From: a bacterium
GTDB taxonomy: Bacteria; Patescibacteriota; Minisyncoccia; Phycocordibacterales; UBA2100
Reading direction: 5' to 3'
Length of the DNA: 64,000 bases
Assembly (NCBI GenBank): GCA_030674455.1
Contig: JAUSGQ010000015.1
Coordinates: 5,574-69,573, forward strand
The notes below the pieces were generated by a model that was not told where the DNA came from, did no database searches, and saw only the letters and a program-made list of their open reading frames with translations. Shown here in pieces: positions 15,178-58,748 of this stretch. Position numbers and translations under genes: made by a program. Each line of letters starts with the position of its first letter. The first letter of the stretch is position 1.

Positions 15178-15211
15178 CCCTATCTTGCGCGGTAGCGTAA
15201 GATAGGGATGT
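15174..15211. promoter_or_regulatory. 38 bp palindrome ACATCCCTATCTTGCGC-GGTA-GCGTAAGATAGGGATGT overlapping the start codon of the PaaX-like gene
   Basis: Read from the sequence. A second copy lies at 15866-15902, immediately downstream of the same gene. Confidence 0.6.
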
Positions 15212-15791
15212 GGGACAGATTGAGGAGAAATCCCGAAAACGCCGAAAGAAGGAGAACATTCAGCAGGCAGTTCTTGCCGCGATAGGAATCGCGGGCATTC
15301 TTGCCGTGACTATGATTGCGCCAAATATCTTTCAGGCGGTTCCCGGTCTCATGGGAAGAAAGCGATACAAACTGGCCTTTCAAGCTCGCACTGCCTCTTC
15401 TCGTCTCGCCATAAAGGGCTACGTGCGATTCATTTTGAAAAATGGAAAGAAATGGATTGAGATTACTGATGCTGGAAGACGCGCTCTGTTGCTCGAGCAT
15501 GAAAAAGCGCGACTCGATGTCATACAGGGCAAACGGTGGGACAAGCGTTACAGACTGGTCATGTTTGACATCCCGCAGAAACGCAAAAACACGAGGGACA
15601 GTGTAAGACGGTTGTTGCGCGAGTGCGGGTTCCTTCGATTGCAGGACAGCGTGTGGGTATTTCCCTACGACTGCGAGGAGTTGATTGTTCTAATTAAGTC
15701 GGATATGCGGCTCGGCAAGGATTTACTGTATGTCATTGTTGATTCGATAGAGAACGACGGTTGGATAAAAAAACACTTCGGCTTGGGATGA
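15210..15791 (+). CDS. PaaX-like transcriptional regulator (N-terminal TM, winged HTH, WDxRW...FDIP central domain); paralog 1
   Basis: RWDKRYRLVMFDIPQKRKNTRDSVRRLLRECGFLRLQDSVWVFPYD resembles the PaaX central/C-terminal (Cas2-like fold) region WDGKWLLLL, and GYVRFILKNGKKWIEITDAGRRALL resembles the PaaX wHTH. GTG start. A paralog lies at 58173-58748. Confidence 0.55.
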   Translation: MGQIEEKSRKRRKKENIQQAVLAAIGIAGILAVTMIAPNIFQAVPGLMGRKRYKLAFQARTASSRLAIKGYVRFILKNGKKWIEITDAGRRALLLEHEKARLDVIQGKRWDKRYRLVMFDIPQKRKNTRDSVRRLLRECGFLRLQDSVWVFPYDCEELIVLIKSDMRLGKDLLYVIVDSIENDGWIKKHFGLG

Positions 15792-15865
15792 TGCGAGAGA
15801 TAGAAATGCGATTGATTCATTTTTGCCCTTTAGCTTTCGATGTCCATTGCATTTCACATTTCCCA

Positions 15866-15902
15866 ACATCCCTATCTCGCGCTACCGCGCAAGATAGGGA
15901 TG
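15866..15902. promoter_or_regulatory. Second copy of the ACATCCCTATCTCGCGC-tacc-GCGCAAGATAGGGATGT palindrome, 3' of the PaaX-like gene
   Basis: Read from the sequence. Together with 15174-15211 it brackets the gene. Confidence 0.6.
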
Positions 15903-15958
15903 TTTGAATGGTTGAGCGTGTAAAACTGTAAAATCGCGAATTACAGAGTCCGAGGGCG

Positions 15959-16645: not shown

Positions 16646-17068
16646 CTATAATCTTTCCGCGCCGTTCTGACCACTGTTCGCGCCAGAATCCTTGCCATTG
16701 CGTAATGGATGCTCGCTCACCTGCTTCAAGAATTCCGAGTGTGTTTCCTTCTTTTCGAAATTGTGTTTGTGGGAAACGAGGTCTGCCAAACGATGTGCCT
16801 GCGTTTCAAGGTATCGCGCGAATCGCGCCGCCTCGAGCGCGCCCCAGTGTATAGCCATGCGGGACAAAAGCAAAAGAATGCCGGGGAGTTTTGATAGCTC
16901 TTCCCTTTTTTCCAGAATGCGCTCCTTAAGTTCTATTGCTTTTTCGTCTGCTATTTTGCGTAAGTTGGGAGAAAGCACCTTTTGACTGCGTTCCTCAAAC
17001 TGCTTCACGACGAACAGGCCGACGATTCCGAGCAGTGACAGAAAAAAGATTACGGATGCGAAAAGCAT
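16646..17068 (-). CDS. Hypothetical membrane protein
   Basis: Start taken at MLFASVIFF. The upstream 20 aa of the ORF (MSVFYSQLFVDWNSFVDW) are read-through into repeat R1 and are repeated verbatim at the sufD ORF. Confidence 0.45.
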   Translation of the reverse strand: MLFASVIFFLSLLGIVGLFVVKQFEERSQKVLSPNLRKIADEKAIELKERILEKREELSKLPGILLLLSRMAIHWGALEAARFARYLETQAHRLADLVSHKHNFEKKETHSEFLKQVSEHPLRNGKDSGANSGQNGAERL

Positions 17069-17071
17069 AAA

Positions 17072-17207
17072 GTGCCAATCAACGAATGAATTCCAATCTA
17101 CAAATAACTGCGAATAAAATACGCTCACCGTCTACAGGTGCCGACCAATGACCGGTCGGCCATTTGTAGCCATTTGTAGTATTCGGATGATTTGTATATT
17201 GGGACAT
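17072..17207. repeat. MITE-like intercistronic element R1 (ends GTGCCAATCAACGAATGAATTCCAATCTACAAAT ... ATTTGTATATTGGGAC), carrying the nested GTCTACAGGTGCCGACCAATGACCGGTCGGC palindrome
   Basis: Shares more than 100 bp with R5 (35290-35459) and R6 (37475-37640). Confidence 0.8.
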
Positions 17208-17210
17208 AGG

Positions 17211-17795
17211 TTATTTCACTGAAAGACGTTCGAATCTGACTACTTCTATCTTCTCGCCGAATTTCTGAATGGCTGAATCTATGAGCCCGCGAATCGTTAT
17301 CGTCGGGTCTTTTACATACGACTGTTCCAGAAGTATGCGTTCTTTGAGGTAGCTCTCGATCTTGCCCTCAACCGCGCGCACTCGCACCGCCTCGGGAAGA
17401 CTCTCGGCTTCTTTTTCAAACACTTCCAGAGCCGCCCGCTTGTCTGCATCTTTCACGTCCGCGCGCGACCTGAACTGCGGGTTCATCGCTGCGACATGCA
17501 TCGCGATTCCGTATGCCAATTTCGCAAATTCCTCGTTCTTCGCGACGAAGTCGGTCTCGCACGCGAGAACGACCGCTCCGACGACGCTTCCGCCGGCATG
17601 CGTGTAGGCGCTCGCGACCCCAGCGCCGAGCGCGCGGCCGGATTTCTTCGACGCTATCGAGGAACTCTGTTTGCGAAGAATTACTTTCGCCTTCTCCATG
17701 TCGCCACCAGCCTCCTGCAGAGCTTTCTTGCACTGCATGACTGAAACGCCGGTCTCATCTCGTAAAGATTTAATGAGTTCAGTAGTTATTTCCAT
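17211..17795 (-). CDS. tsf: Elongation factor Ts
   Basis: N-terminal UBA-like ITTELIKSLRDETGVSVMQCKKALQEAGGDMEKA and the dimerisation domain. Start taken at MEITTE; the longer ORF reads into repeat R2. Confidence 0.9.
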   Translation of the reverse strand: MEITTELIKSLRDETGVSVMQCKKALQEAGGDMEKAKVILRKQSSSIASKKSGRALGAGVASAYTHAGGSVVGAVVLACETDFVAKNEEFAKLAYGIAMHVAAMNPQFRSRADVKDADKRAALEVFEKEAESLPEAVRVRAVEGKIESYLKERILLEQSYVKDPTITIRGLIDSAIQKFGEKIEVVRFERLSVK

Positions 17796-17901
17796 AAGAT
17801 GTTCCAATCTACAAATACATTCCAATCTACAAATTACCACGAATATGACGTGGTGTTATTTGTGGATATTTGTAGCATTCGCATCATTCGCAGATTGGGA
17901 C
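17794..17901. repeat. MITE-like element R2 between rpsB and tsf; it encodes the last 14 aa and the stop codon of rpsB
   Basis: CATAAGATGTTCCAATCTACAAAT...GCAGATTGGGAC. The rpsB C-terminus SQSANDANATNIHK* lies inside the element. Confidence 0.75.
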
Positions 17902-18644
17902 TTCCCCTTCTCGTATGCCTCCGCAATCGCGTTCACCACGAGCCGGATACTGCGCACGGATGTGTCGTTCGCCGGCACCGGATACTGCACTTGAGAAAAG
18001 TCGCAGTCCGAGCTTGAAAGGCCGATGACTGGAATTCCCAACTGGTTCGCCTCGCGTACCGCTGTAAACTCACGCTTCGTATCTACGATGAAAAGCGCCG
18101 CCGGAAGGTCAAGCATTTTCACCAATCCGCCAAAGCGCGCAAGAAGCTCTGTTATCTCCCGGTCAATGAGAAGGCGTTCTTTTTTCGTGTACTTCTCAAG
18201 CTCGCCCGAGTCACGTTCGCTCATAAGCTTTTCCAAACGGTCGATTCGCTTTCGGATATTCTTGAAATTCGTGAGCGAGCCCCCTATCCAGCGTCCGGCA
18301 ACATACGGCGCGCCAATACGCAGGGCGACTTCCTTAACGATATCAACCGCCTCATTCTTGCCGCCGACGAAGAGAAGCTGTTTTGAACTCACAGACTTCG
18401 CACCAGCTTGCGGAGCGCCAACAGCGGGAGTATTACCCGCGATAGAACGCGCGAATTCGCAAGCCGCCTCGAGGCGCTTCTGGGTTTGCTCAAGGTCAAA
18501 AATGTCGTTGCGGTCTTTAGTGCCGAAAATGAAAGGCGAAGCTGTTGGGTGGCGGCGCGTGCGCGAATAGCCAAAATGTGCGCCTGCATCAAACAGAGTT
18601 TTAATGTCTTGTGTTCCTGCGGTCACCCCATTAGAAGTTATCAT
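17856..18644 (-). CDS. rpsB: 30S ribosomal protein S2
   Basis: HFGYSRTRRHPTASPFIFG...and a conserved S2 core. An alternative start lies at 18680. Confidence 0.9.
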   Translation of the reverse strand: MITSNGVTAGTQDIKTLFDAGAHFGYSRTRRHPTASPFIFGTKDRNDIFDLEQTQKRLEAACEFARSIAGNTPAVGAPQAGAKSVSSKQLLFVGGKNEAVDIVKEVALRIGAPYVAGRWIGGSLTNFKNIRKRIDRLEKLMSERDSGELEKYTKKERLLIDREITELLARFGGLVKMLDLPAALFIVDTKREFTAVREANQLGIPVIGLSSSDCDFSQVQYPVPANDTSVRSIRLVVNAIAEAYEKGKSQSANDANATNIHK

Positions 18645-18845
18645 GGTTGTATGTGATTGTTTTTTGGATTCTTTAAGCACCCCCTCGTCGCATTAAAACC
18701 ACGCGTTTTCTGAACTTCAAACGGGGCAGGTGTCGCGCGAGTGTATCACAGGCAATAGGCACTAGGCAAATGACCGTACAGTCCGTAACCAGCAGTTACT
18801 AGTTAGTTGTCAATGTACCAAGGGGCGCCCTTGCCGCTTCTTTGT

Positions 18846-18883
18846 ATTGCTTTAGCAAATGCGGCCGCATTTTCTAAAGCAAT
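18846..18883. promoter_or_regulatory. Palindrome ATTGCTTTAGCAAATGCGGCCGCATTTTCTAAAGCAAT (core ATGCGGCCGCAT) in the rpsB upstream region
   Basis: One of three ATGCGGCCGCAT-centred long palindromes in the window; the others are at 20989-21028 and 40015-40056. Confidence 0.6.
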
Positions 18884-19006
18884 ATGCAGTCATACCAACA
18901 TTTTCAGTATCCGATACTTAGTTATAGACCTAAGTATCTGGATGCAAAAATCGCGAGACGCTCTGGACACTTTCGCCACTTTGTACTTATTGGTATCGTA
19001 TAGGTT

Positions 19007-20972: not shown

Positions 20973-20988
20973 GGGAGTGCGGATGCGG

Positions 20989-21028
20989 TATCATCGTAGC
21001 CGATGCGGCCGCATCGGCTATGATGATA
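20989..21028. promoter_or_regulatory. Palindrome TATCATCGTAGCCGATGCGGCCGCATCGGCTATGATGATA (ATGCGGCCGCAT core) abutting the relBE -35 TTGACA (21034-21039)
   Basis: Read from the sequence. Operator-like position immediately upstream of the TTGACA...TATA(T/A)A promoter, 30 bp before the relB ATG. Confidence 0.6.
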
Positions 21029-21068
21029 CGGTCTTGACATATGTTTAAGCTATATATAAACTATACGC

Positions 21069-22398: not shown

Positions 22399-22436
22399 CC
22401 TCTCGCAAGAGAGGCCAGGTTTGTTATATTAGTAAG
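22399..22436 (+). promoter_or_regulatory. Conserved promoter-like motif CTCTCGCAAGAGAGGCCAGGTTTGTTATATTAGTAAG (-10 TATATT 22425-22430) upstream of leuC
   Basis: An almost identical motif sits upstream of leuA (25269-25306). Confidence 0.55.
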
Positions 22437-22449
22437 TACAACTAAATGT

Positions 22450-23907
22450 ATGGCAAAAGCAAAAACTGAAACAACAAGCAAGGCGACAAAAAAGACCCTG
22501 TACGAAAAGCTGTGGGATGCGCATGTGGTGCGCGAAGCAAAGGGCGAACCTACTATATTGTATATAGACCTGCATCTAATCCACGAGGTTACTACGCCGC
22601 AGGCATTCACCGGATTGCACAACCGCAAACTGCCTGTTCGCCGTACCGACCTCACCATCGCGACCATGGACCATTCGGTGCCTTCCGCAAATCGCAAGAA
22701 GCTCCCGTGGCCCGACGTCATGGCGCAAAAGCAAGTAGAGATGCTGGCGAAGAACTGCAAGAAGCATGGCATCACGCTCTACGGTCTCGACAGCGAGCAT
22801 CAGGGTATCGTACACGTCATCGGGCCGGAACTTGGTATCACACAACCGGGAAAAACAATCGTCTGCGGAGACAGCCACACATCCACGCACGGCGCTTTCG
22901 GTGCGCTTGCCTTCGGCATCGGCACGTCGGAAGTCGAGCACGTACTCGCCACACAGTGCCTGCTTCAGAACAAAACAAAAACGATGGCAATCACCGTAAA
23001 CGGCTCGCTCAAGCCCGGCGTCTATTCCAAAGACATTATCCTGCGCATCATCCACGAGCTCGGCATCGGCGGAGGAACCGGCTATACCTTTGAATATCGC
23101 GGGAGCGCCATCCGCGCCCTCTCGATGGAAGCGCGCATGTCGATCTGCAATATGAGTATCGAAGCCGGCGCGCGCGCGGGAATAATAGCTCCCGACCAGA
23201 CCACAATTGATTACCTCGAAAAGCGCGTGAAATTCAAAAATGATGGCCGTCTACAGGTGCCGACCATGGACCGGTCGGCCGAAAAAAAGCAGGCCATCGC
23301 GAAGTGGCTCTCATGGCAATCCGATGAAGGCGCAAAATTCGACGAAGAACTCATCATTGATGCGGCTACTATTGAGCCGATGGTCACATGGGGTACGAAC
23401 CCGGGCATGTCTGTCGGCATCAGCCAAAAAATCCCAAAAGAAGAAAACGAGGACATCAAAAAAGCACTGGAGTATATGGGGCTCAAGGGAGGCCAAATGA
23501 TGCGCGGGCAAAAAATTGATTACGTATTTTTCGGCAGCTGCACCAACTCCCGCATTGAAGACCTGCGCATAGAAGCGAATATCCTCAAAGGCAAAAAAAT
23601 CGCTCCCGGCGTCACCGTCTTCGCGGTTCCCGGCTCATTCGAGGTCAAAAAGCAGGCCGAAGCCGAGGGACTCCACAAAATATTTCTCGATGCCGGGTGT
23701 GAGTGGCGCGAAGCTGGCTGCTCAATGTGCATCGGCATGAATGGCGACCTTGTGCCTTCGGGAAAATACTGCGCTTCCACTTCAAACCGCAACTTCATCG
23801 GCCGCCAAGGCCGAGGAGCCCGCACGCTCCTCATGTCGCCCGCGATGGCCGCGGTCGCCGCAATTCTAGGCGCTGTCGGCGATTCCCGCGACTACATAAA
23901 GATATGA
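22450..23907 (+). CDS. leuC: 3-isopropylmalate dehydratase large subunit
   Basis: Aconitase-family motifs (GDSHT, SCTNSRIEDL, CIGMNGD). Contains a roughly 12 aa in-frame insertion RLQVPTMDRSAE encoded by the GTCTACAGG palindromic element at 23248-23280. Confidence 0.9.
   Translation: MAKAKTETTSKATKKTLYEKLWDAHVVREAKGEPTILYIDLHLIHEVTTPQAFTGLHNRKLPVRRTDLTIATMDHSVPSANRKKLPWPDVMAQKQVEMLAKNCKKHGITLYGLDSEHQGIVHVIGPELGITQPGKTIVCGDSHTSTHGAFGALAFGIGTSEVEHVLATQCLLQNKTKTMAITVNGSLKPGVYSKDIILRIIHELGIGGGTGYTFEYRGSAIRALSMEARMSICNMSIEAGARAGIIAPDQTTIDYLEKRVKFKNDGRLQVPTMDRSAEKKQAIAKWLSWQSDEGAKFDEELIIDAATIEPMVTWGTNPGMSVGISQKIPKEENEDIKKALEYMGLKGGQMMRGQKIDYVFFGSCTNSRIEDLRIEANILKGKKIAPGVTVFAVPGSFEVKKQAEAEGLHKIFLDAGCEWREAGCSMCIGMNGDLVPSGKYCASTSNRNFIGRQGRGARTLLMSPAMAAVAAILGAVGDSRDYIKI
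23248..23280 (+). repeat. In-frame copy of the palindromic element CGTCTACAGGTGCCGACCATGGACCGGTCGGCC within leuC
   Basis: Identical core to the intergenic copies in R1, R5 and R6. E. coli LeuC lacks these roughly 12 residues at this position. Confidence 0.75.
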
Positions 23908-24040
23908 AGTCCCAATCTACAAATGATACGAATACTACCTGCCCGCCGAAGCCTCGGCGCAGGCGGGCGAATGGCTACGAATACACGTGGTTTAACATTT
24001 GTAGTTATTTGTAGATTGGAATAAATTTGTAGATTGGTAC
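23908..24040. repeat. MITE-like intercistronic element R3, filling the leuC stop to leuD start gap
   Basis: AGTCCCAATCTACAAAT...ATTTGTAGATTGGTACACCT-ATG, with a nested GC hairpin module CCTGCCCGCCGAAGCCTCGGCGCAGGCGGGCG. Confidence 0.8.
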
Positions 24041-24044
24041 ACCT

Positions 24045-24644
24045 ATGAAATCATCTCAATTCAAAGACCTCACATCCACGCTCGCACCCCTGATGCGCGA
24101 CAATGTCGACACCGACCAGATAATTCCGGCGCGCTTTCTCACGGCAACCGACAAAAAGGGATTCGGCATGCGCCTCTTCATGGATTTGCGCTACGAGGAT
24201 GACGGCTTCACGCCCAAGCCCGATTTCGTCCTGAACCAAAAGAAATACAAGAGCGCAAAAATCCTTCTCGCGCATGAAAATTTCGGCTGCGGTTCCTCAC
24301 GCGAACACGCGCCCTGGGCCATCATCGGCGCAGGCTTTACTGCCGTCATCGCGGTCTCATTCGCCGACATATTCAAAAATAATTCGGCAAAAAATGGCTT
24401 GCTCCTCGTCGAACTGCCCCGAGAAGTGATAGACGCGATGCATGCCGACGTCGAAAAAAACCCTAAAGAGAAAGCAAGTATAAATTTGGAAAAGCAAACG
24501 CTCACGTGGAAAAAGCAGGCGCACACATTCGCAATCAACCCGTTCGTTAAGAAGTGCCTTATGGAAGGCCTTGATGACATCGGATACACTTTAAGCTTCG
24601 CTAAGGAAATCAAATCGTTCGAAAACACAAGAGATCAGGCATAA
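24045..24644 (+). CDS. leuD: 3-isopropylmalate dehydratase small subunit
   Basis: LMRDNVDTDQIIPARFL... is a typical LeuD sequence. Confidence 0.9.
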   Translation: MKSSQFKDLTSTLAPLMRDNVDTDQIIPARFLTATDKKGFGMRLFMDLRYEDDGFTPKPDFVLNQKKYKSAKILLAHENFGCGSSREHAPWAIIGAGFTAVIAVSFADIFKNNSAKNGLLLVELPREVIDAMHADVEKNPKEKASINLEKQTLTWKKQAHTFAINPFVKKCLMEGLDDIGYTLSFAKEIKSFENTRDQA

Positions 24645-24754
24645 ATGCTCGGGGCATGCGACCTTTCATTGACGATTCATGGATGTGCCTATATGAGCAA
24701 TGTGCCTGTGGGCGGAAGCCCCTTTTCGGCTAAGGATTCCCAAAGCTGAAGACA

Positions 24755-24797
24755 GGCGCACCAAAGAGCGCCACCATACGGTGGTGTTTTTTGTTTT
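24755..24797 (+). terminator. Rho-independent terminator after leuD (CCACC-ATAC-GGTGG followed by TGTTTTTTGTTTTC)
   Basis: Read from the sequence. Confidence 0.7.
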
Positions 24798-24870
24798 CTA
24801 ATCTAACCACTGCTAGCAAAACCATTTTTGCTTTCAATTCTCACCTCGCTCCCACATTTTCTAACCATTC

Positions 24871-25161
24871 TCATTCTAACATTTTGCAAAATGTTAGAAC
24901 GTGAACTGCACGGGCGGTTAGCTTATGCCTTACGCTCCTCGCGTCGTAGCGTTTCAGAATGAGTCCTGCAATTGCCATCTTGCGCAGGTGGTCGGATGCA
25001 TTCTCGTACCCGATGTTCAATCGCTCGGCGATATCCTCAACCGAAAGCTCCGGCTCTTTGTGCAACAGGTTAAGAATTTCGAGCCGCCGGTGATTCGCAA
25101 AACCTTTTACCACCCTCTCAAGCCGCCGATAGTTAGTTGGATTGTTAGTCGCTCCTGTCAT
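24871..25161 (-). CDS. ArsR/SmtB-family HTH transcriptional regulator (paralog 1)
   Basis: 96 aa with ...RRLEILNLLHKEPELSVEDIAERLNIGYENASDHLRKMAIAGLI... (wHTH). The C-terminal ...VLTFCKMLE is encoded by the 3' palindrome. Confidence 0.75.
   Translation of the reverse strand: MTGATNNPTNYRRLERVVKGFANHRRLEILNLLHKEPELSVEDIAERLNIGYENASDHLRKMAIAGLILKRYDARSVRHKLTARAVHVLTFCKMLE
24874..24899. promoter_or_regulatory. Palindrome TTCTAACATTTTGCAAAATGTTAGAA overlapping the 3' end (C-terminal codons) of ArsR paralog 1
   Basis: Read from the sequence. Same core as the 44 bp palindrome upstream of the gene. Confidence 0.65.
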
Positions 25162-25170
25162 GCTTGCATG

Positions 25171-25214
25171 TTATCCACATTCTAACATTTTGCAAAATGT
25201 TAGAATGTGGATAA
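25171..25214. promoter_or_regulatory. Perfect 44 bp palindrome TTATCCACATTCTAACATTTTGCAAAATGTTAGAATGTGGATAA between the ArsR gene (divergent) and leuA
   Basis: Read from the sequence. 10 bp upstream of the ArsR start codon. Confidence 0.7.
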
Positions 25215-25268
25215 CCGAATGAGCGGAGAGATGAAATCTCGATGAGAAAACGGTCGAGACGTAGCCGC

Positions 25269-25306
25269 GCCTCTCGCAAGAAAAGCCAGTTCTGCTATAT
25301 TAGTGA
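25269..25306 (+). promoter_or_regulatory. Conserved promoter-like motif CCTCTCGCAAGAAAAGCCAGTTCTGCTATATTAGTGAG (-10 TATATT 25285-25290) upstream of leuA
   Basis: Paralogous to the motif at 22399-22436 upstream of leuC. Confidence 0.55.
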
Positions 25307-25318
25307 GACCAAAACAAT

Positions 25319-27049
25319 ATGCGTAATTCAGCAAAAAAATACCGTTCGTTTCCGCCCGTCGGCCTCAAAGACCGGACGTGGCCAAACAAGACCATAACCA
25401 AAGCGCCTCGCTGGTGCTCTGTCGATTTGCGCGACGGCAATCAGGCGCTCATAACGCCGATGAACCTTGAGCAGAAACTCAACATGTTCAAACTGCTCGT
25501 GGACATAGGATTCAAGGAAATCGAGGTGGGCTTCCCTTCCGCTTCGCAGGTGGAATTTGATTTTGTCCGCACGCTTATCGAGCGCAAGTTGATTCCGGCC
25601 GACGTTACCATCCAAGTGCTGACGCAAGCGCGCGAACACCTCATCGAAACCACGTGCCGCTCGCTCGTGGGAGCTAAGCGCGCGCTCATTCACGTGTACA
25701 ACTCCACTTCGGAACTCCAGCGCCGCGTCGTATTCCGAATGGGCAAGAAGGAGGTAAAAGAGCTGGCCGTCAAAGGAACCGCATGGACGCGCCAGTACAG
25801 CGAGAAATATCTTAATGGCACGGATGTCTTCTACGAATACAGTCCCGAAAGCTTCATGGGAACAGAGCTGGATTTCGCAGTTGAGGTGTGCGACGCAGTC
25901 GTCGATGAATGGAAACCGAAAGCTGGAGAAAGGGTCATCATCAATTTGCCCAACACGGTTGAACTCGCAACCCCCAATATTTACGCCGACCAAATCGAGT
26001 GGTTCTGCCGACACTTCAAATCACGCGACAAAGCGATTATCAGTCTTCACTGCCACAACGACCGCGGGAGCGCAGTTGCTGCGTCCGAGCTCGGCATCAT
26101 GGCCGGCGCCGAACGCGTGGAAGGCACGCTCTTCGGCAACGGCGAGCGCACCGGCAATGTCGACATCATCACGCTCGCGCTCAATCTCCACACACAGGGC
26201 ATCGACCCGGGACTCGACCTGCACGATATGGACCACTGCATTGAAGTCTACGAATCATGCACCGACCTCACCGTCCCCCCGCGCCATCCATACGCGGGCG
26301 AATTGGTCTTTACCGCATTTTCCGGCTCGCATCAAGACGCGATAGACAAGGGCTTCCGTGCGATGAAAGATTCCGGGAAAACTCTCTGGGAAGTTCCCTA
26401 CATCCCGATGGACCCCAAAGATGTCGGCCACACCTACGAGGCGGTCATCCGCATCAACAGCCAGTCCGGCAAGGGAGGCGTTGCGCACATTCTGCGCGTC
26501 GAGTTCGGCTACAACACACCGAAGGCGATGCACCCCGAGTTGGGCAAGATGATCCAACGCATTTCCGACGCGACCGGCCAAGAAGTACTGCCAGGAGTAA
26601 TCCGAAAAGCGTTTGAGGATGAATATCTGAATCGTTCGAGCCCAGTCTCGCTCGAGAGTTTCAAGATCAGCGACCAGAGCGGCCTAAATGGCGACGTCAC
26701 CTCAATTTCTGCAGTCATCAAAAAGGACGGGAAAAAGCGCACGGTTAAAGACACCGGCAACGGCCCTATCGATGCCTTCAGCAAAGCACTCAAGCGCGCT
26801 GGCGCTGGCCACTACACGTTCCTCTCATACGAGGAACACGCGCTCGGCAAAGGCGAAGACGCGCGCGCCGTCGCCTACATTCAAATAGCCGATGAACATG
26901 GCAAAGCATATTTCGGCGTCGGCACCGATTTCAACATTGTCGGCGCATCTCTGCGCGCTCTTTTGAGCGCACTGAATCGTTCGGAACAATCTAAAACCGA
27001 CAAATCAAAACAGAAAGCATCCGCCACCGGCGCAAAGAAACACACATGA
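25319..27049 (+). CDS. leuA: 2-isopropylmalate synthase (long form with C-terminal regulatory domain)
   Basis: DLRDGNQ, HCHND and a LeuA dimer/regulatory C-terminal domain. 576 aa. Confidence 0.9.
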   Translation: MRNSAKKYRSFPPVGLKDRTWPNKTITKAPRWCSVDLRDGNQALITPMNLEQKLNMFKLLVDIGFKEIEVGFPSASQVEFDFVRTLIERKLIPADVTIQVLTQAREHLIETTCRSLVGAKRALIHVYNSTSELQRRVVFRMGKKEVKELAVKGTAWTRQYSEKYLNGTDVFYEYSPESFMGTELDFAVEVCDAVVDEWKPKAGERVIINLPNTVELATPNIYADQIEWFCRHFKSRDKAIISLHCHNDRGSAVAASELGIMAGAERVEGTLFGNGERTGNVDIITLALNLHTQGIDPGLDLHDMDHCIEVYESCTDLTVPPRHPYAGELVFTAFSGSHQDAIDKGFRAMKDSGKTLWEVPYIPMDPKDVGHTYEAVIRINSQSGKGGVAHILRVEFGYNTPKAMHPELGKMIQRISDATGQEVLPGVIRKAFEDEYLNRSSPVSLESFKISDQSGLNGDVTSISAVIKKDGKKRTVKDTGNGPIDAFSKALKRAGAGHYTFLSYEEHALGKGEDARAVAYIQIADEHGKAYFGVGTDFNIVGASLRALLSALNRSEQSKTDKSKQKASATGAKKHT

Positions 27050-28140
27050 GCAAGACCGGCACCATAGCAGTCCTGCCGGGCGACGGCATCGGCCCCGAGA
27101 TAATGGCCTCAGCAATCAAGGTCTTGGACGCAGTCAGCGCGAAATGCGGCCACACATTTGAGACAAAAGAAGGATTAACCGGCGGCCTCGCGTACGACAA
27201 ATTCGGCGTCCACCTGCCGGAAGAGACAATAAAAATCTGTGAAGCTTCCGACGCAATCCTCTTCGGCGCCGTCGGCGGTCATGTTTCCGACCAGGAATCC
27301 CCGCGCTGGAAAGATGCCGAAAAGAACGTCATCCTTGGGCTTCGCAAGAAATTCAATCTGTTCGCCAACCTGCGCCCGCTCAAAGTCTGGCCCGGAACGG
27401 AATCTTTTAGCCCGCTTCAGGAGCGCTTCATCAAAGGCACCGACGTTTTAATCGTGCGCGAACTTATCGCCGGTCTCTACTTCGGCCCGATGCGCCGCTT
27501 TGAAGAGAATGGAGAAATTACAGCGGAAGAAACGAGCCGCTACACATGGAAACAAATCGAGAACGTCGTGCGCATCGCGTTTCAGGCCGCGCAAAAGAGA
27601 AAAAAGAAACTCACCGTCGTCGACAAAGCGAATGTGCTGGAAACGTCGCGTCTCTGGCGCGAAGTCGCGCGCAAAATCCAGCTCGAGTTCCTTGATGTCG
27701 CCATGGATTTTATGTTCGTCGACAACGCGGCCCAACAGCTCGTTCGCTCACCCGCTTCGTTTGATGTCATTGCGACAGACAACATGTTCGGCGACATTTT
27801 AAGCGACCTCGGCGGCGCCGTCGTCGGCTCTCTCGGCTTGGTACCTTCCGCCAGCATATCCGCCAAAGGCGGAGAAAAGAAATTCGGCCTTTACGAACCC
27901 GCCCACGGCTCCGCGCCTGACATTGCAGGGAAAGGAATCGCGAACCCGACCGCGCAAATCCTCTCGCTCGCGATGCTCCTGCGCTACACCTACGAGCTAG
28001 ACAAAGAGGCGCAGGCAATTGAGGAAGCGGTGCTCGCAGCATGGAAAGCAGGCAAGAAAACGAAAGACCTCGCGGCCCCGGGCGAAGCGAGTCTTTCTAC
28101 CGATGAGTTCACATCTTGCGTCATCGAGAGATTGAAGTAA
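27046..28140 (+). CDS. leuB: 3-isopropylmalate dehydrogenase
   Basis: MSKTGTIAVLPGDGIGPEIM..., NMFGDILSDLGG, GSAPDIAGKG. Confidence 0.9.
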   Translation: MSKTGTIAVLPGDGIGPEIMASAIKVLDAVSAKCGHTFETKEGLTGGLAYDKFGVHLPEETIKICEASDAILFGAVGGHVSDQESPRWKDAEKNVILGLRKKFNLFANLRPLKVWPGTESFSPLQERFIKGTDVLIVRELIAGLYFGPMRRFEENGEITAEETSRYTWKQIENVVRIAFQAAQKRKKKLTVVDKANVLETSRLWREVARKIQLEFLDVAMDFMFVDNAAQQLVRSPASFDVIATDNMFGDILSDLGGAVVGSLGLVPSASISAKGGEKKFGLYEPAHGSAPDIAGKGIANPTAQILSLAMLLRYTYELDKEAQAIEEAVLAAWKAGKKTKDLAAPGEASLSTDEFTSCVIERLK

Positions 28141-28156
28141 TAATCAGGTGACTATG

Positions 28157-28260
28157 AAGTCCCAATCTGCAAATGATACGAATACTACGAATGGCTACAA
28201 ATATTACACATCTTACATTTGTAGTTATTTGTAGATTGGGATAGATTCGTAGATTGGTAC
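28157..28260. repeat. MITE-like intercistronic element R4, filling the leuB stop to ilvE start gap
   Basis: GAAGTCCCAATCTGCAAATGATACGAATAC...ATTTGTAGATTGGGATAGATTCGTAGATTGGTACAC. Confidence 0.8.
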
Positions 28261-28265
28261 ACTCT

Positions 28266-29204
28266 ATGCAAGCGACAAAATACATCTGGTTTAATGGGAA
28301 GCTCGTTCCATGGAAGAGCGCAAAAATCCATGTGCTATCGCACTCGCTCCACTATGGTACTGCTGCTTTCGAGGGCATCCGCATGTACGACACAAAAAAA
28401 GGTCCTGCCATCTTCCACCTGAAACGACACATGGAACGCCTCATCTTCTCGGCCAAAAGTCTCGGGATGGATTTGCCGTATACACTCCCCCAGCTCATGC
28501 AGGCCGCGGTAGACACGGTGAGCAAGAATAAATTGAAGTCGTGCTACATCCGCCCCATCGCCTACTACGGTTTCGGCGAAGTGCGCGTGCTCCCCACCAA
28601 CTGCCCTATCGAAGTCGCTATCGCCGCATGGCCGTGGGGCGCCTACTTGGGCGACGAGCCGGCTCGCATCACAGTGGTAAAGACGCTCCGCATCCATCCG
28701 CAAACGCTCCGCGTGAAAGCGAAAATCAGCGGCCACTATGTGAACTCCATGCTCGCTGGCCGCGAGGCCACAGACCGCGGATTCACCGAAGCGCTTCAAC
28801 TAGACTACAAGGGCAATATCGCCGAAGGCCCGGGCGAAAATTTCTTTATCGTTAAGGGAAAGACCCTTACGACGCCGGCACTCGGCTCGATTCTCCCCGG
28901 CATTACTCGCGAATCTGTCATCACCCTCGCGCGCGACTTGGGCTACAAAGTGGTGGAGCGTGCGGTAACGGTTAAAGACGCGCTTTCTGCCGACGAATGT
29001 TTCTTCACCGGCACCGCCGCGGAAGTGACGGCCATCGCCTCGATAGACAATAAGAAAATGAAAACCGCTAGTGGTTCGTCTACAGATGCCGATGCCTACT
29101 CCATCGGCCCAGTCACTAAACAAATCCGCGAAGAATTCCTCAAAATAACGAGAGGCGAAAATCCAAAGTACAAAAAGTGGCTGACGTTTGTAAAAGAATA
29201 CTAG
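28266..29204 (+). CDS. ilvE: Branched-chain amino acid aminotransferase (class IV)
   Basis: YIWFNGKLVPW, a C-terminal EGPGENFF...GTAAEV motif region. ATG at 28266; the track's TTG start at 28254 lies inside R4. Contains an in-frame palindromic element (SSTDADAYS) at 29077-29108. Confidence 0.85.
   Translation: MQATKYIWFNGKLVPWKSAKIHVLSHSLHYGTAAFEGIRMYDTKKGPAIFHLKRHMERLIFSAKSLGMDLPYTLPQLMQAAVDTVSKNKLKSCYIRPIAYYGFGEVRVLPTNCPIEVAIAAWPWGAYLGDEPARITVVKTLRIHPQTLRVKAKISGHYVNSMLAGREATDRGFTEALQLDYKGNIAEGPGENFFIVKGKTLTTPALGSILPGITRESVITLARDLGYKVVERAVTVKDALSADECFFTGTAAEVTAIASIDNKKMKTASGSSTDADAYSIGPVTKQIREEFLKITRGENPKYKKWLTFVKEY
29077..29108 (+). repeat. In-frame copy of the type-B palindromic element CGTCTACAGATGCCGATGCCTACTCCATCGGC within ilvE
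   Basis: The same element occurs intergenically at 36767-36799 and at the purD 3' end at 56746-56778. E. coli IlvE is about 10 aa shorter at this position. Confidence 0.7.
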
Positions 29205-29731: not shown

Positions 29732-30001
29732 CTAATCTTCCCTCAAGTGCTTATTGCGCGACTTTTTCATGCTCTCCATCCTGCCCTTCATGAGCGTAGA
29801 CCAGCCCAAAATCCCAATGGCCGACCGCACCGCCTCCGCCTCATCATCGCTAAGCGGATACTTACTAATCAGCTTTGTTAACACATCAATCGCCGTCTTA
29901 TCTTCCATCCCAAAATTATACCAAACCACCAACCGCCAATCCCAACCCGTCTCCAATGACACTCTCACATTCTTGAGAATGTGAGAATGTTCATAAGACA
30001 A
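29732..30001 (-). CDS. Hypothetical small protein
   Basis: 89 aa ORF preceded by the palindrome TCTCACATTCTTGAGAATGTGAGA (29958-29981). Start uncertain. Confidence 0.3.
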   Translation of the reverse strand: MSYEHSHILKNVRVSLETGWDWRLVVWYNFGMEDKTAIDVLTKLISKYPLSDDEAEAVRSAIGILGWSTLMKGRMESMKKSRNKHLRED

Positions 30002-30025: not shown

Positions 30026-31177
30026 TTAGCGCCAGCTTTTTGCACCCTCAAAAACAATCTTCGCGGAAGAACCGAGAACAATCAGAACTAGTACGAATTT
30101 AGCGAGACCGCCGAGCACGGGGATAAGTCCGAGCAACGTGTAGATAAGCACGCCGAGCAGTATCGTCTGCCATGTGAGCTGATATTCCGCTTGTTTGTAG
30201 AATTTCTTATACACGTATGCGCCGAGAAGCACCGCCGCCCACGCCGAAGCCGTGAGCATAAGCGCCCCGAAGAGGAGGAGCCCCAGCACGCCGAATGGAA
30301 TGCCGATGAGCGTTACAAGCGCAATGACAGAAGCTATCGGAAGAACAATAAGTACGATGAATCCTCGGCCAATTTCTTGGAACGGATGTGCCGCTGCGCT
30401 CGCGACAACCGCGAACGCAAAGCGTTTGAATAAGAGTCCGAGTACGAGTGCGAAGAGAAGCGCAGCCAGGAACTTACCGAGGAAGAGAGCGGACAGAATC
30501 GCGATTATGCCCTCTTTTGTAATCGGACTTTTTGCAGGACTCGTTAGCTGCGTGAAGGTCGTCTTCCCTTTCACCACAGCGCCGGTTTCAATAGTGGCTT
30601 CCGATGCCGCTGCGTAATCCAGATTGCCGTCGATAACAGCATCTTTGCCCAGTGTAAGTTTGTTGCCGGTGAATATTACATTTCCGCTCACATGAGAATT
30701 GATGACGACTTCGCCGCCCTTTAACTGCATCTTTCCTCCCACCGGAGCGTTTACCGCGAGAGCACCGCCTGCCCATACCACATCTCTGCCGACACTGCCG
30801 GAAATTTGCGTTTGTCCGCCCGCCACTACGATATCTTTTCCGACTTTACCGGCAATAGAAATGTTACCGCCCGCTACGCGCAAATCATCGCCAACATCCG
30901 AAAGAATAGCAATCGAGCCGCCGCCGATGAGAGCATCCTGCGAGACCGGACCATTAACTGAAACATTGCCTCCGCCGATAACAAGATCGCCGACCACCGT
31001 GCCGCCGCTTGAGATATTGCCGCCGAGGAGATAGAGGTCGTTATTTACCGTTTCTGTCGCGGAAAGCGTTGGCGACTCGCCCGTGCGAATCTCCGCCGCT
31101 ATCGCAGCTACCGGAATAATAAGCGTACTAATGATAATTGCCGCCCACGCCCACGAACCCTTTAAAGAGTTGCTCAT
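30026..31177 (-). CDS. Bactofilin-like polymer-forming protein with a C-terminal multi-TM domain
   Basis: Signal/TM, then degenerate beta-helix repeats (GGNIS.GG, GDLVIGGGNVSVNG, VAGGNISIAG, as in bactofilin/CcmA) and 4-5 C-terminal TM helices. Confidence 0.55.
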   Translation of the reverse strand: MSNSLKGSWAWAAIIISTLIIPVAAIAAEIRTGESPTLSATETVNNDLYLLGGNISSGGTVVGDLVIGGGNVSVNGPVSQDALIGGGSIAILSDVGDDLRVAGGNISIAGKVGKDIVVAGGQTQISGSVGRDVVWAGGALAVNAPVGGKMQLKGGEVVINSHVSGNVIFTGNKLTLGKDAVIDGNLDYAAASEATIETGAVVKGKTTFTQLTSPAKSPITKEGIIAILSALFLGKFLAALLFALVLGLLFKRFAFAVVASAAAHPFQEIGRGFIVLIVLPIASVIALVTLIGIPFGVLGLLLFGALMLTASAWAAVLLGAYVYKKFYKQAEYQLTWQTILLGVLIYTLLGLIPVLGGLAKFVLVLIVLGSSAKIVFEGAKSWR

Positions 31178-31212
31178 GAATAAATGATACCCCCTCCCAC
31201 AGGCTTTTCAAC

Positions 31213-31255
31213 TCCCTTATCAACCCCCTTTTCAACCCCCTTTTCAACCCCTATT
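31213..31255. repeat. Short tandem repeat (TTCAACCCCCTT)x3
   Basis: Read from the sequence. It creates the STPFSTPFSTP spurious ORF. Confidence 0.7.
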
Positions 31256-31257
31256 TT

Positions 31258-31291
31258 CTTATTGCAGTGTTTTGCAAAACACTGCAATAAG
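31258..31291. promoter_or_regulatory. Perfect 34 bp palindrome CTTATTGCAGTGTTTTGCAAAACACTGCAATAAG
   Basis: Read from the sequence. Related copies lie at 31356-31387 and 31652-31683, flanking ArsR paralog 2. Confidence 0.65.
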
Positions 31292-31355
31292 ATACTGAAA
31301 GAAAAAATCGGCGCTATCGTTTTTACACTTTATCGCCCCGTCACTCAATTTCTCG

Positions 31356-31637
31356 CTATTGCAGTCTTTTGCAAAACACTAGAATAGACTCCCCGCGCGG
31401 CGTTAGTTTGTGTCGGACACTGGGTCCCTCGTTTCGCTTCAGCACAAGACCTGCAATCGCAAGTTTGCGAACATGGTCGGACGCATTTTCGTATCCAATA
31501 TCCAACCTTTCGGAAATATCCTCTACTGATAACTCCGGTTCGCGCTTCAGCAAATCCATAATCTGAACGCGCCGGTGATTAGCGAACCCCTTCACGATTC
31601 GTTCGATATTTCTGTACTGACTACTATCTACCGCCAT
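31356..31637 (-). CDS. ArsR/SmtB-family HTH transcriptional regulator (paralog 2)
   Basis: 93 aa, about 60% identical to paralog 1 (RVQIMDLLKREPELSVEDISERLDIGYENASDHVRKLAIAGLVLKR). The C-terminal ILVFCKRLQ is encoded by the palindrome at 31356-31387. Confidence 0.75.
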   Translation of the reverse strand: MAVDSSQYRNIERIVKGFANHRRVQIMDLLKREPELSVEDISERLDIGYENASDHVRKLAIAGLVLKRNEGPSVRHKLTPRGESILVFCKRLQ

Positions 31638-31651
31638 GCTCCCATTTTACC

Positions 31652-31683
31652 CTATTGCAGTGTTTTGCAAAACACTGGAATAG
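31652..31683. promoter_or_regulatory. Palindrome CTATTGCAGTGTTTTGCAAAACACTGGAATAG, 15 bp upstream of the ArsR paralog 2 start
   Basis: Read from the sequence. Confidence 0.65.
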
Positions 31684-35459: not shown

Positions 35460-35467
35460 ATAGTTTT

Positions 35468-37468: not shown

Positions 37469-37474
37469 AGTTAT

Positions 37475-37640: not shown

Positions 37641-37647
37641 ACGATAT

Positions 37648-39168: not shown

Positions 39169-39179
39169 TCATATATTTT

Positions 39180-58172: not shown

Positions 58173-58748
58173 ATGATAACGCCCAATATAAAAACTCTAA
58201 ATAATAAAAGTCGGCGCGAGCGAACTGTGCAAGTCTTAAAGATGATAGCCATCGGCGCACTTATTATTGGTATCGGTGCCGTGCCATCTCCGCGAGCAAT
58301 GAGTAAACTTCTTTCTGAATTGGCACTTGGAGATAACCAAAGAAATAGAAAGTATGCGGGCCGAAAAATCCGTGAACTGAAGAAGCGAGGATATCTTGAG
58401 GAGCATGGAGTTAGATATGCTGTCAGCGACAAAGGCCAGGAAATACTTTCTCGCGAACACATTACGAATCTTGTAATACCAAGGCCACGCAAGTGGAACG
58501 GGAAGTGGCATTTTATCATGTTTGACATTCCGCTAACAGATTCGTATGCACGTCAGGCCCTGAATAAGATTCTACTCGGCATGGGTCTGGTGCAGTATCA
58601 GCAGTCGGTTCTTATATACCCGTATCCAATCAAAGAAACTGTTCTGCATGTCTGCAGGTTTTACAAAGTCGCCCGTTATGTATCGTTCGTTACCGCGGAA
58701 GATATTGATGGCTTTGATAAACTCAAAAGACAGTTCGGCTTAACATGA
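58173..58748 (+). CDS. PaaX-like transcriptional regulator (paralog 2)
   Basis: N-terminal TM (IAIGALIIGIGAV), wHTH (HGVRYAVSDKGQEIL), and RKWNGKWHFIMFDIPLTDSYARQALNKILLGMGLVQYQQSVLIYPY, paralogous to 15210-15791. Confidence 0.55.
   Translation: MITPNIKTLNNKSRRERTVQVLKMIAIGALIIGIGAVPSPRAMSKLLSELALGDNQRNRKYAGRKIRELKKRGYLEEHGVRYAVSDKGQEILSREHITNLVIPRPRKWNGKWHFIMFDIPLTDSYARQALNKILLGMGLVQYQQSVLIYPYPIKETVLHVCRFYKVARYVSFVTAEDIDGFDKLKRQFGLT

What the first reader, a model, noticed from the sequence alone, without database searches (positions are those of the whole stretch)
24871..25214. ArsR-family gene bracketed by cognate palindromes, with the 3' palindrome encoding the protein's last residues
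ArsR paralog 1 (24871-25161) has a perfect 44 bp palindrome (TTATCCACATTCTAACATTTTGCAAAATGTTAGAATGTGGATAA) 10 bp upstream of its start. A second copy of the core, TTCTAACATTTTGCAAAATGTTAGAA, overlaps its last 8 codons (...VLTFCKMLE*). The upstream copy also sits in the divergent leuA promoter region, so this regulator may control leuABilvE as well as itself. Operator sequences at both gene ends suggest autoregulatory DNA looping or a cassette-like unit.
Basis: seen in the sequence. Interest (0 to 1): 0.6.

Follow-up and report, generated by a model that had tools for sequence, protein, structure and literature searches.

The report
Repressor gene that encodes its operator
A small repressor gene from an ultra-small (CPR/Patescibacteria) bacterium has its own DNA-binding site upstream and a second copy written into its last nine codons; about 150 related genes share this layout and the sites co-evolve, so each gene records what its protein probably binds.

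Summary
Gene 24871-25161(-) encodes a 96-aa ArsR/SmtB-fold winged-helix protein. A perfect 46-bp palindrome (25170-25215) lies 8 nt before its ATG. The 26-bp core recurs exactly at 24874-24899, inside the last 8 codons. Paralog 31356-31637(-) has the same layout with different palindrome arms.

In 72/72 relatives the site centre lies 13 nt before the stop, and a cognate site lies upstream. That upstream site overlaps the -35 and spacer of an apparently leaderless promoter. Synonymous sites are saturated in the gene body but frozen in the last 10 codons (TTT-TGC-AAA in 69/69). Each gene's two sites co-vary (z=12.5).

A sister clade ending in FLRTLE carries a different core, TTCTTRAGAA, at both positions. 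One gene ending in FCRILE carries TTCTGCAGAA at both.

Best reading: a self-contained autorepression module with a promoter operator and an auxiliary operator embedded in the helix-alpha5 codons. Whether the second site acts by looping or as a roadblock is unresolved. Control of leuA is not supported. No published description was found. The call is a new variant of a known kind, of high interest.

The parts
24871..25161 (-). P1: 96-aa ArsR/SmtB-fold winged-helix gene (a1 10-21, a2 24-35, a3 41-48, recognition helix a4 52-64, wing 68-81, a5 83-95)
25170..25215 (.). P1 promoter operator: perfect 46-bp palindrome with core 25180-25205 and centre at 25192/25193. The centre TTGCAA resembles a -35 element. 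The outer arms are TTATCCACA / TGTGGATAA.
25168..25173 (-). Putative -10 (TAACAT) 6 nt before the ATG, implying a leaderless mRNA. This is inferred from family geometry. TGTTAGAAT at 25187-25179 is an alternative extended -10.
24874..24899 (.). P1 second operator copy. It is identical to the core and encodes residues 88-96 (VLTFCKMLE), the C-terminal two thirds of helix a5. Its centre is 13 nt before the stop codon.
24794..24870 (-). G-rich, C-poor tract following the stop codon, a family-wide feature of unknown role. It ends at the leuD intrinsic terminator (24762-24793, + strand).
31356..31637 (-). P2: 93-aa paralog, 67% identical to P1, ending in ...ILVFCKRLQ*
31644..31683 (.). P2 promoter operator (palindrome 31652-31683). 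It overlaps a -35-like TTTGCA (31671-31666), a 16-nt spacer and a -10 TAAAAT (31649-31644), which lies 6 nt before the ATG.
31357..31386 (.). P2 second operator copy in its last codons. It differs from the upstream copy at 2 positions.
31255..31294 (.). Third P2-type site, a near-perfect 40-bp palindrome. It lies between P2 and the next gene (30026..31177, -), about 97 nt upstream of that gene's ATG.
29951..29978 (.). Site of the sister-clade type (core TTCTTGAGAA). It lies 54 nt upstream of TATAAT (29910-29905), which is followed by 6 nt and the ATG (29898) of a small ORF. No gene of that clade is in the window.

Best explanation
This is a self-contained autorepression module of a small ArsR/SmtB-type winged-helix repressor.

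Shown from sequence: the upstream palindrome overlaps the -35-like centre and the spacer of the gene's own promoter. The -10 of that promoter lies 6 nt before the ATG, which implies a leaderless mRNA. A second copy of the same site is written into the last 9-10 codons (helix alpha5), with its centre 13 nt before the stop. It is held there by selection on the nucleotides, not only on the protein.

Inferred: the encoded dimer binds both sites. The promoter copy shuts off initiation. The copy inside the gene is an auxiliary operator. It may cooperate with the promoter copy across about 290 bp (a loop or a dimer-of-dimers bridge). It may also block RNA polymerase that enters or leaves the gene. 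Either way, expression of a very low-copy regulator would be tight and insulated from neighbouring transcription. Paralogs carry private operator variants, so each regulates itself.
For: 1. Universality. All 72 genes of the FCK clade (70 genome loci plus 2 in the window) have a TTTTGCAAAA-centred site 13 nt before the stop and another site upstream. In the sister clade, 77 of 80 genes have both; 2 of the other 3 carry a variant upstream site and the third lacks upstream sequence.

2. Nucleotide-level selection. Synonymous entropy is near its maximum over roughly 70 body codons but close to zero in the tail. Phe is TTT in 69/69, Cys TGC in 69/69, Lys AAA in 69/69, Leu CTA in 64/68, Ser TCT in 36/36 and Glu GAA in 37/37. 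In the sister clade the tail Phe is TTC in 71/71, whereas another Phe in the same genes is TTT in 59/72. Arg is AGA in 72/72.

3. Co-evolution. A gene's upstream site matches its own 3' site at 17.1 of 22 variable positions, against 13.97 +/- 0.25 for shuffled pairings (z=12.5). The sister clade gives z=12.4. Three operator cores go with three C-termini: TTTTGCAAAA with FCK, TTCTTRAGAA with FLR, and TTCTGCAGAA with FCR.

4. Promoter overlap. A TAnnnT hexamer lies exactly 6 nt before the ATG in 38/71 and 36/78 genes, and 4-9 nt before it in 55/71 and 55/78. About 3-6% would be expected by chance. The P2 promoter scan fits this geometry.

5. The binder is probably the encoded protein. The wing-tip residue (R75 in P1; R/K versus other residues) co-varies with the operator's inner triplet, AAC versus AGT. 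The fold is ArsR/SmtB.

6. An unrelated regulator family (PaaX_M/Cas2-like) is bracketed the same way by locus-specific palindromes. This holds for both copies in the window and for 4 of 5 homolog loci. The downstream copy lacks the -10.
Against: No binding or expression data exist for any member. Everything about binding and repression is inferred.

Operator spacing (272-340 bp in one clade, 274-417 bp in the other) shows only weak periodicity (R about 0.25). The signal disappears when each distance is counted once. A strictly phased loop is therefore not supported.

The upstream site resembles the 3' site better in direct than in inverted orientation (39 loci versus 15, and 39 versus 10). 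Several loci have 32/32 identity even though the site is not a perfect palindrome. Binding by a symmetric dimer does not by itself predict this. It hints at copying between the two sites.

Many 3' sites are poorer palindromes than the upstream ones, with 9-10 of 13 symmetric positions.

The G-rich, C-poor 80 nt after the stop and the 31 extra 'solo' sites are not explained by this model.
Confidence: 0.6

Rival explanations
1. The 3' site is mainly the operator or upstream promoter element of the next gene downstream. It would be pushed into the coding region by genome compaction, so the regulator controls its neighbour as well as itself.
For: The next gene is co-directional in 50 of 68 loci. 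In some loci a -10 and a leaderless ATG follow the G-rich tract. Solo sites in the window lie 54-97 nt upstream of leaderless promoters.
Against: No -10 is conserved at the position where it follows the upstream site. In 18 of 68 loci, including P1 here, the next gene is convergent, yet the site is fully conserved. Neighbours are not conserved.
Confidence: 0.15
2. The two sites are direct repeats left by, or used for, recombination. The roughly 300-bp unit would be a small mobile or excisable cassette. In circular or tandem form one site would serve both as the gene's 3' end and as its promoter-operator. Solo sites would be empty or excised positions.
For: Similarity between the two sites is biased toward direct orientation, and some loci have exact 32-nt direct repeats. 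Solo sites resemble gene 3' ends, with a stop triplet followed by a G-rich flank. Homology between P1 and its orthologs starts exactly at the upstream site, and the genomic contexts differ. Genomes hold several paralogs and there is no synteny.
Against: The unit contains no recombinase. Site arms and cores differ between paralogs of one genome, so no single host recombinase site is shared. No tandem arrays appear in 160 loci. Frozen codons and wing co-variation are what operator function predicts. No empty-site/filled-site pair was found, but none was systematically sought.
Confidence: 0.07
3. The 3' palindrome works at the RNA level, as an mRNA 3' hairpin for termination or stability. Its likeness to the promoter palindrome would then be secondary.
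For: The 30-nt RNAs fold with a median of about -6 kcal/mol. No canonical terminator follows the gene.
Against: There is no U-tract. The stems are AU-rich and weak, -3.9 kcal/mol in the common ...RLQ type, where the two arms (TTCTAG and CTGCAA) are not complementary. The invariant 10-bp centre shows conservation, not compensatory change. The promoter copy lies upstream of the inferred transcription start and yet co-varies with the 3' copy.
Confidence: 0.07
4. One reading: the upstream palindrome also gives this regulator control of the divergent leuA-leuB-ilvE genes.
For: The palindrome lies in the 157-nt P1-leuA intergenic region.
Against: The site centre is about 100 nt from leuA's own extended -10. 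That promoter module is shared with leuC, which has no such palindrome (D18). Orthologs of P1 lie in other contexts and the family has no conserved neighbours.
Confidence: 0.1
5. It is a coincidence of protein conservation. The C-terminal peptide is conserved for folding or dimerisation and merely happens to read as a palindrome.
For: The tail is part of helix alpha5, the usual ArsR dimer interface, and has a hydrophobic pattern L-x-F-x-x-x-L.
Against: Protein constraint cannot fix synonymous positions. It also cannot make them co-vary with a non-coding site about 290 bp away.
Confidence: 0.01

Closest known systems
ArsR/SmtB-family autorepressors (SmtB, CadC, CzrA, HlyU, BigR, SqrR)
   Same: Same fold, and a profile match: HlyU at E=1e-9, Foldseek TM 0.7-0.83. 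It is a small protein, presumably a dimer, with an inverted repeat overlapping its own promoter.
   Different: It has no metal or thiol sensor motif. The only Cys is replaced by Leu in the sister clade. The mRNA appears leaderless. A second operator sits inside the gene's own last codons. To my knowledge (from memory, plus literature that found nothing) this has not been described for the family.
Auxiliary operators inside transcribed or coding DNA: lac O2 in lacZ, gal OI in galE, araO2 in the araC leader, purR operator O2 in the purR coding region (recalled from the literature, not checked here)
   Same: A second cognate operator lies downstream of the promoter, inside a gene, and helps repression by looping or as a roadblock. 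In purR the site is in the regulator's own coding sequence.
   Different: Here the site is at the extreme 3' end, at a fixed codon position. It is conserved across a superfamily and visibly dictates the amino acids and codons of the regulator's C-terminal helix. Oligomerisation beyond the dimer, and looping itself, are unknown.
Phage lambda immunity region, with the cI gene lying between OR and OL (recalled)
   Same: A repressor gene is bracketed by cognate operators. cI is transcribed as a leaderless mRNA from PRM. Long-range cooperation between the flanking operators tightens autoregulation.
   Different: The lambda operators are tripartite, 2.4 kb apart, intergenic, and control outward lytic promoters. 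Here there are single sites about 290 bp apart, one of them coding, and no phage context.
parS inside the spo0J/parB gene of Bacillus subtilis (recalled); the archaeal ArsR-like centromere binder AspA is a weak PDB hit at E about 5e-5
   Same: A DNA-binding protein whose palindromic site lies within its own coding sequence.
   Different: No ParA or ParB partners are present. The other copy of the site overlaps the promoter, which indicates regulation rather than segregation.

Membership tests
ArsR/SmtB family (Pfam HTH_5, PF01022) | Sequence profile match above the curated threshold | tested here: met
   HTH_5 scores 32.4 bits against a cut-off of 22 for P1, and 28.2 for P2. A PDB profile search finds HlyU, CadC, CzrA and SmtB.
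ArsR/SmtB family (Pfam HTH_5, PF01022) | a1-a2-a3-a4-b1-b2-a5 winged-helix fold | tested here: met
   The AF2 model has pLDDT 88 with the elements in that order. Foldseek matches CadC, HlyU and CzrA with TM 0.7-0.83.
ArsR/SmtB family (Pfam HTH_5, PF01022) | Inverted-repeat operator overlapping the regulator's own promoter | tested here: met
   A palindrome overlaps the -35-like centre and spacer, and the -10 follows it. Binding itself was not tested.
ArsR/SmtB family (Pfam HTH_5, PF01022) | Inducer site: a3/a3N Cys motif, a5 Asp/His/Glu metal site, or a redox Cys pair | tested here: not met
   By inspection of alignments A1 and A2 there is no CxC in a3 and no His/Asp/Glu ligand set in a5. The single Cys92 is Leu in the sister clade. 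The effector, if there is one, is unknown.
ArsR/SmtB family (Pfam HTH_5, PF01022) | Homodimer formed through a1/a5 | not testable with these tools
   Only a monomer model was made.
Looping or auxiliary-operator repressor systems | Two or more cognate operators in cis | tested here: met
Looping or auxiliary-operator repressor systems | Helical phasing of operator spacing | tested here: inconclusive
   R is 0.24-0.27 near 10.5-11 bp (p about 0.004-0.006 uncorrected). When each distance is counted once, R is 0.12-0.17 and not significant.
Looping or auxiliary-operator repressor systems | The repressor bridges two sites (a tetramer or higher) | not testable with these tools
   This needs biochemistry.
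Mobile cassette (MITE/PATE, Xer 'dif module', integron-like) | Ends shared among copies in one genome and recognised by one recombinase or transposase | tested here: not met
   P1 and P2 have different arms, and the sister-type site has a different core. No recombinase lies in or next to the units.
Mobile cassette (MITE/PATE, Xer 'dif module', integron-like) | Filled-site versus empty-site polymorphism | not tested
   Only loci that contain the gene were fetched.
Intrinsic terminator | GC-rich stem followed by a U-tract | tested here: not met
   Neither 3' palindrome is called as a terminator. The only terminator in 24600-25400 is leuD's, at 24762-24793 on the + strand.

The most novel reading that the evidence does not exclude
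The operator-gene-operator layout may be a general way for these ultra-small bacteria to build regulators, not a quirk of one family. Each low-copy repressor would fence its own gene with its own binding sites. That would close a loop or block incoming and outgoing polymerases, in place of conventional terminators. In the ArsR-like superfamily the fence has been absorbed into the coding sequence, so the operator dictates the protein's C-terminal residues. The exact direct repeats and solo sites would then mark occasional excision and re-insertion of about 300-bp units, in which one site serves as both the gene end and the promoter.
Probability: 0.15. Interest if true: 0.9.

Novelty: new variant of a known kind. 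Interest (0 to 1): 0.75.

Why it matters
1. It is a clear natural case of dual coding. A transcription-factor binding site fixes the codons, and even the amino acids, of the factor's own dimerisation helix: FCK, FLR or FCR according to the operator core.

2. Every gene of this large CPR superfamily carries a copy of its presumed operator (1,777 representative clusters at E<=1e-3). Metagenomes therefore hold thousands of ready-made protein-to-site pairs. This makes the co-evolution of winged-helix specificity directly readable. One example is the wing-tip R/K paired with the inner triplet AAC.

3. It gives a first concrete and testable picture of promoter and operator architecture in Patescibacteria, whose gene regulation is essentially unstudied. 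The picture includes leaderless geometry with the -10 placed 6 nt before the ATG.

4. A second, unrelated regulator family is bracketed in the same way. This suggests a design principle suited to tiny cells with very few repressor molecules.

Tried and rejected
- Chance or generic repeat: rejected. No matches are expected by chance. The site type occurs almost only with family genes, with 31 extra sites in 398 kb.
- Conserved target operon or leu regulon: rejected. Clustering of neighbouring genes found nothing shared. The largest non-family cluster of real neighbour genes covers 7 loci; a 9-locus cluster is the antisense ORF of the family gene itself.
- Conserved -10 after the 3' site: looked for and not found.
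- Intrinsic terminator: not found.
- Known RNA family: Rfam found only a tRNA in the window.
- Helical phasing: weak and not robust.
- Literature: searches for the motif, for CPR or Patescibacteria with ArsR, operator or leaderless, and for operators within a regulator's own coding sequence returned nothing relevant. Two searches failed on syntax.
A narrower alignment worked.
- One homolog locus had no DNA on file.
- Xer/dif-type site: considered because of the arm-centre-arm shape of 11+6+11 bp. Rejected because arms and centres differ between paralogs in one genome.

Full report
OBSERVATION. The minus-strand ORF 24871..25161 encodes a 96-aa protein ending in ...VLTFCKMLE*. A perfect 46-bp palindrome at 25170-25215 ends 8 nt before the ATG. 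The 26-bp core TTCTAACATTTTGCAAAATGTTAGAA occurs exactly twice in the window, at 25180-25205 and 24874-24899. No match with up to 3 mismatches appeared in 100 shuffles. The second copy abuts the stop codon and covers the last 8 codons.

A SECOND COPY OF THE DESIGN IN THE WINDOW. A paralog at 31356..31637(-) is 93 aa, 67% identical, and ends in ...ILVFCKRLQ*. It has the same layout with different arms: TATTGCAGTGTTTTGCAAAACACTGCAATA. One copy is upstream (31652-31683), one is in the last codons (31357-31386, 2 differences), and a third is at 31255-31294. The two palindromes share only the skeleton TTnnAnnnTTTTGCAAAAnnnTnnAA. The centre TTT-TGC-AAA reads Phe-Cys-Lys.

WHAT THE PROTEIN IS. Pfam places both proteins in ArsR-type HTH families; HTH_5 scores 32.4 bits against a cut-off of 22. 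A profile of the family hits HlyU (1e-9), CadC, CzrA and SmtB in the PDB. An AlphaFold model (pLDDT 88) shows a1-a2-a3-a4-wing-a5. Foldseek ranks CadC, HlyU and CzrA first, with TM 0.7-0.83. The coding palindrome specifies residues 88-96, the C-terminal two thirds of a5. No metal or thiol sensor motif is present (by inspection).

THE LAYOUT IS A FAMILY PROPERTY. The protein has 883 close relatives. Those that carry names come from Patescibacteria: Kaiserbacteria, Paceibacterota and Magasanikbacteria. All 120 listed relatives end in x-L-x-F-C-K-x-L-x. I fetched 80 genomic loci. In 72 of 72 genes (70 loci plus the two window genes) a TTTTGCAAAA-centred site lies with its centre exactly 13 nt before the stop. 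A second such site lies upstream, most often centred 30 nt before the ATG. Centre-to-centre distance is 272-340 bp.

SELECTION ACTS ON THE DNA, NOT ONLY ON THE PROTEIN. From the KGFANHRR motif to the stop codon the genes align without gaps. Synonymous positions are saturated through codon 68; for example Phe is TTC 37 / TTT 32 and Lys is AAA 47 / AAG 22. In the last ten codons they are frozen. Phe is TTT in 69/69, Cys TGC in 69/69, Lys AAA in 69/69 and Leu CTA in 64/68, although CTA is the rarest Leu codon elsewhere in these genes. Ser is TCT in 36/36 and Glu GAA in 37/37. In the sequences listed, the variable residue after FCK is K, R, T, I or M, all with codons starting with A, as the AAAA half of the centre requires; where it is Arg, the codon shown is AGA.

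THE TWO SITES CO-EVOLVE. At 22 variable positions a gene's upstream site matches its own 3' site at 17.1 positions. Shuffled pairings give 13.97 +/- 0.25 (z=12.5). Rare variants are shared by both sites of one gene: TTTTGGAA in L052, TTCAAG in L076 and AGCT in the ...LAFCK... genes.

The strongest test came from a sister clade, found with a profile search of 1.8 billion representatives. That search gave 1,777 hits at E<=1e-3, many ending in ...LKFLRTLE*. Eighty metagenomic loci of this clade carry a different core, TTCTT[A/G]AGAA, again centred 13 nt before the stop. A site with the same core lies upstream in 77 of 80. One gene ending in FCRILE has TTCTGCAGAA at both positions, and another shares an unusual AATTATAGAAT arm between its two sites. 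In this clade the tail Phe is TTC in 71/71, while another Phe in the same genes prefers TTT (59/72). Arg is AGA in 72/72. Own-pair identity again gives z=12.4. So the operator core and the C-terminal residues change together.

THE UPSTREAM COPY IS A PROMOTER OPERATOR. Aligned on the site centre, a TAnAAT box appears at +19..+24, and the ATG follows 6-7 nt later. A TAnnnT hexamer lies exactly 6 nt before the ATG in 38/71 and 36/78 genes, and 4-9 nt before it in 55/71 and 55/78. About 3-6% would be expected by chance. This geometry implies leaderless mRNAs. It makes the palindrome centre (TTGCAA/TTTGCA) the -35 region, as the consensus scan also finds for P2: TTTGCA, 16 nt, TAAAAT, 6 nt, ATG. 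In P1 the corresponding hexamer is TAACAT at 25173-25168. A protein bound to the palindrome would occlude the promoter.

WHO BINDS. The arms are paralog-specific. The residue at the wing tip (R75 in P1) shows the highest mutual information with the inner operator triplet. R or K goes with AAC(R), and other residues go with AGT(R) or AGC. P1 (RYDARS, AACA) and P2 (RNEGPS, AGTG) fit this pattern. The statistics are not corrected for phylogeny. Still, this is the pattern expected if the encoded protein recognises both sites.

WHAT THE 3' COPY DOES (INFERENCE). It is not a general promoter for the next gene. No -10 is conserved after it. In 18 of 68 loci, including P1, the next gene is convergent. 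It is not an intrinsic terminator. As RNA it would be a weak, AU-rich hairpin, often mismatched, with a median of -6 kcal/mol and -3.9 in the ...RLQ type. The best-supported reading is an auxiliary operator. It would be bound by the same repressor, and would either cooperate with the promoter operator across about 290 bp or act as a roadblock at the gene boundary. Spacing shows only weak periodicity that vanishes when each distance is counted once, so looping is neither supported nor excluded.

A second, unrelated regulator family supports the boundary idea. The two PaaX_M/Cas2-like genes of the window (15210..15791 and 58173..58748) are each bracketed by their own ~40-bp palindromes. So are 4 of 5 homologs elsewhere. 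In those, the upstream copy holds a -10 placed 7 nt before the ATG, and the copy after the stop has the -10 destroyed.

WHAT DOES NOT FIT. The upstream site resembles the 3' site better in direct than in inverted orientation (39 versus 15, and 39 versus 10). Several loci have 32/32 identity although the site is not a perfect palindrome. This suggests occasional copying between the two sites.

Thirty-one extra sites occur in 398 kb around the genes. Many resemble gene 3' ends, with a stop triplet followed by a G-rich flank.

The 80 nt after the stop are G-rich and C-poor, with a GC skew of +0.34. G exceeds C in 60 of 69 loci, and runs of four or more G outnumber such runs of C by 59 to 8. The skew is equal whether the next gene is convergent or co-directional, and is absent from ordinary upstream regions.

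P1's homology with its orthologs begins exactly at the upstream site, and the flanking genes differ. These points keep a cassette or recombination reading alive at low probability. Against it, no recombinase is present, the ends differ between paralogs, and no tandem arrays were seen.

The site centre is 126 nt from the leuA ATG and about 100 nt from leuA's own extended -10. That -10 lies in a 43-nt module shared with leuC (22399-22441 versus 25270-25312, D18). Neither orthologs nor the family at large are linked to leu genes. The idea is not supported, though not excluded.

KNOWN OR NEW. Autorepression by an ArsR-type dimer at a promoter palindrome is ordinary. Auxiliary operators inside genes are known: lac O2, gal OI and purR O2. 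So are repressor genes lying between operators (lambda cI) and a binding site inside the binder's own gene (parS in spo0J). These four are recalled from memory, not checked here. What I could not find described is an operator fixed in the last codons of the regulator itself, conserved across a superfamily, and co-evolving with the promoter copy so that it sets the C-terminal residues. I file it as a new variant of a known kind.

CAVEATS. All loci come from metagenome assemblies. Gene starts and promoters are predicted. Loci are not phylogenetically independent, so z-scores and p-values overstate significance, although the three independent core-to-tail switches do not depend on them. No experimental data exist.

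Noticed in passing
window 15174-15211 and 15865-15904 (gene 15210..15791 +); 58125-58160 and 58763-58798 (gene 58173..58748 +); loci L162-L165: Two PaaX_M/Cas2-like regulator genes are each bracketed by their own ~40-bp palindromes. Four of 5 homologs elsewhere show the same, with locus-specific sequences. The upstream copy contains a -10 placed 7 nt before the start codon, and the copy after the stop has the -10 destroyed.
   Followed up: partly
window 29951-29978: An operator of the sister-clade type (core TTCTTGAGAA) lies 54 nt upstream of TATAAT, which is followed by 6 nt and the ATG (29898) of a small ORF. No gene of that clade is in the window, so the regulator must be encoded elsewhere in the genome.
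   Followed up: partly
window 24794-24870 (- strand); the same position in L001-L080: An ~80-nt G-rich, C-poor tract follows the stop codon of the ArsR-like genes (GC skew +0.34; G exceeds C in 60 of 69 loci). It is present whichever way the next gene points. Its function is unknown.
   Followed up: partly
window 31190-31253 (- strand): Four tandem GGGGGTTGAAAA-like units lie between the third P2-type site and the leaderless promoter (TTGAAA, 16 nt, TATCAT, 6 nt, ATG at 31177) of a 383-aa membrane protein. The pattern fits a G-quadruplex motif, or a run of -35-like TTGAAA elements.
   Followed up: no
window 17048-17238, 17790-17904, 23896-24047, 28138-28271, 35287-35460, 37469-37651, 39058-39191, 42774-42903, 62980-63106: A dispersed family of intergenic inverted-repeat elements is built from ATTYGTAG / CTACRAAT octamers. 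Some have a central hairpin CCGTCTACAGGTGCCGACC...GGTCGGCC. Copies lie between genes within operons (leuC/leuD, leuB/ilvE) and overlap gene ends.
   Followed up: no
window 18845-18884, 20988-21029, 40011-40060: Three long palindromes of 40-50 bp share the centre GCGGCCGC. Two of them (18845 and 40011) are 93% identical.
   Followed up: no
window 22399-22441 and 25270-25312: leuC and leuA share a 43-nt upstream module, 81% identical. It contains a CCTCTCGCAAGAGAGG-type hairpin and an extended -10 (TGnTATATT) about 10 nt before the start codon. This is a likely common control region for the leucine genes.
   Followed up: no
window 25171-25179 and 25206-25214: The outer arms of the P1 upstream palindrome are the only two perfect matches in the window to the DnaA-box consensus TTATCCACA. 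Relatives of the same operator type carry TATCCCCACA just upstream of their site. One-mismatch matches are enriched in the window: 21 against 9.8 expected.
   Followed up: partly
window 1111-1202 and 52605-52696: A 92-nt inverted repeat pair lies 51 kb apart. Each copy contains a 41-nt hairpin, ACCCAGCACCTTTGTTTCA...GAAACGAAGGTGCTGGGT.
   Followed up: no
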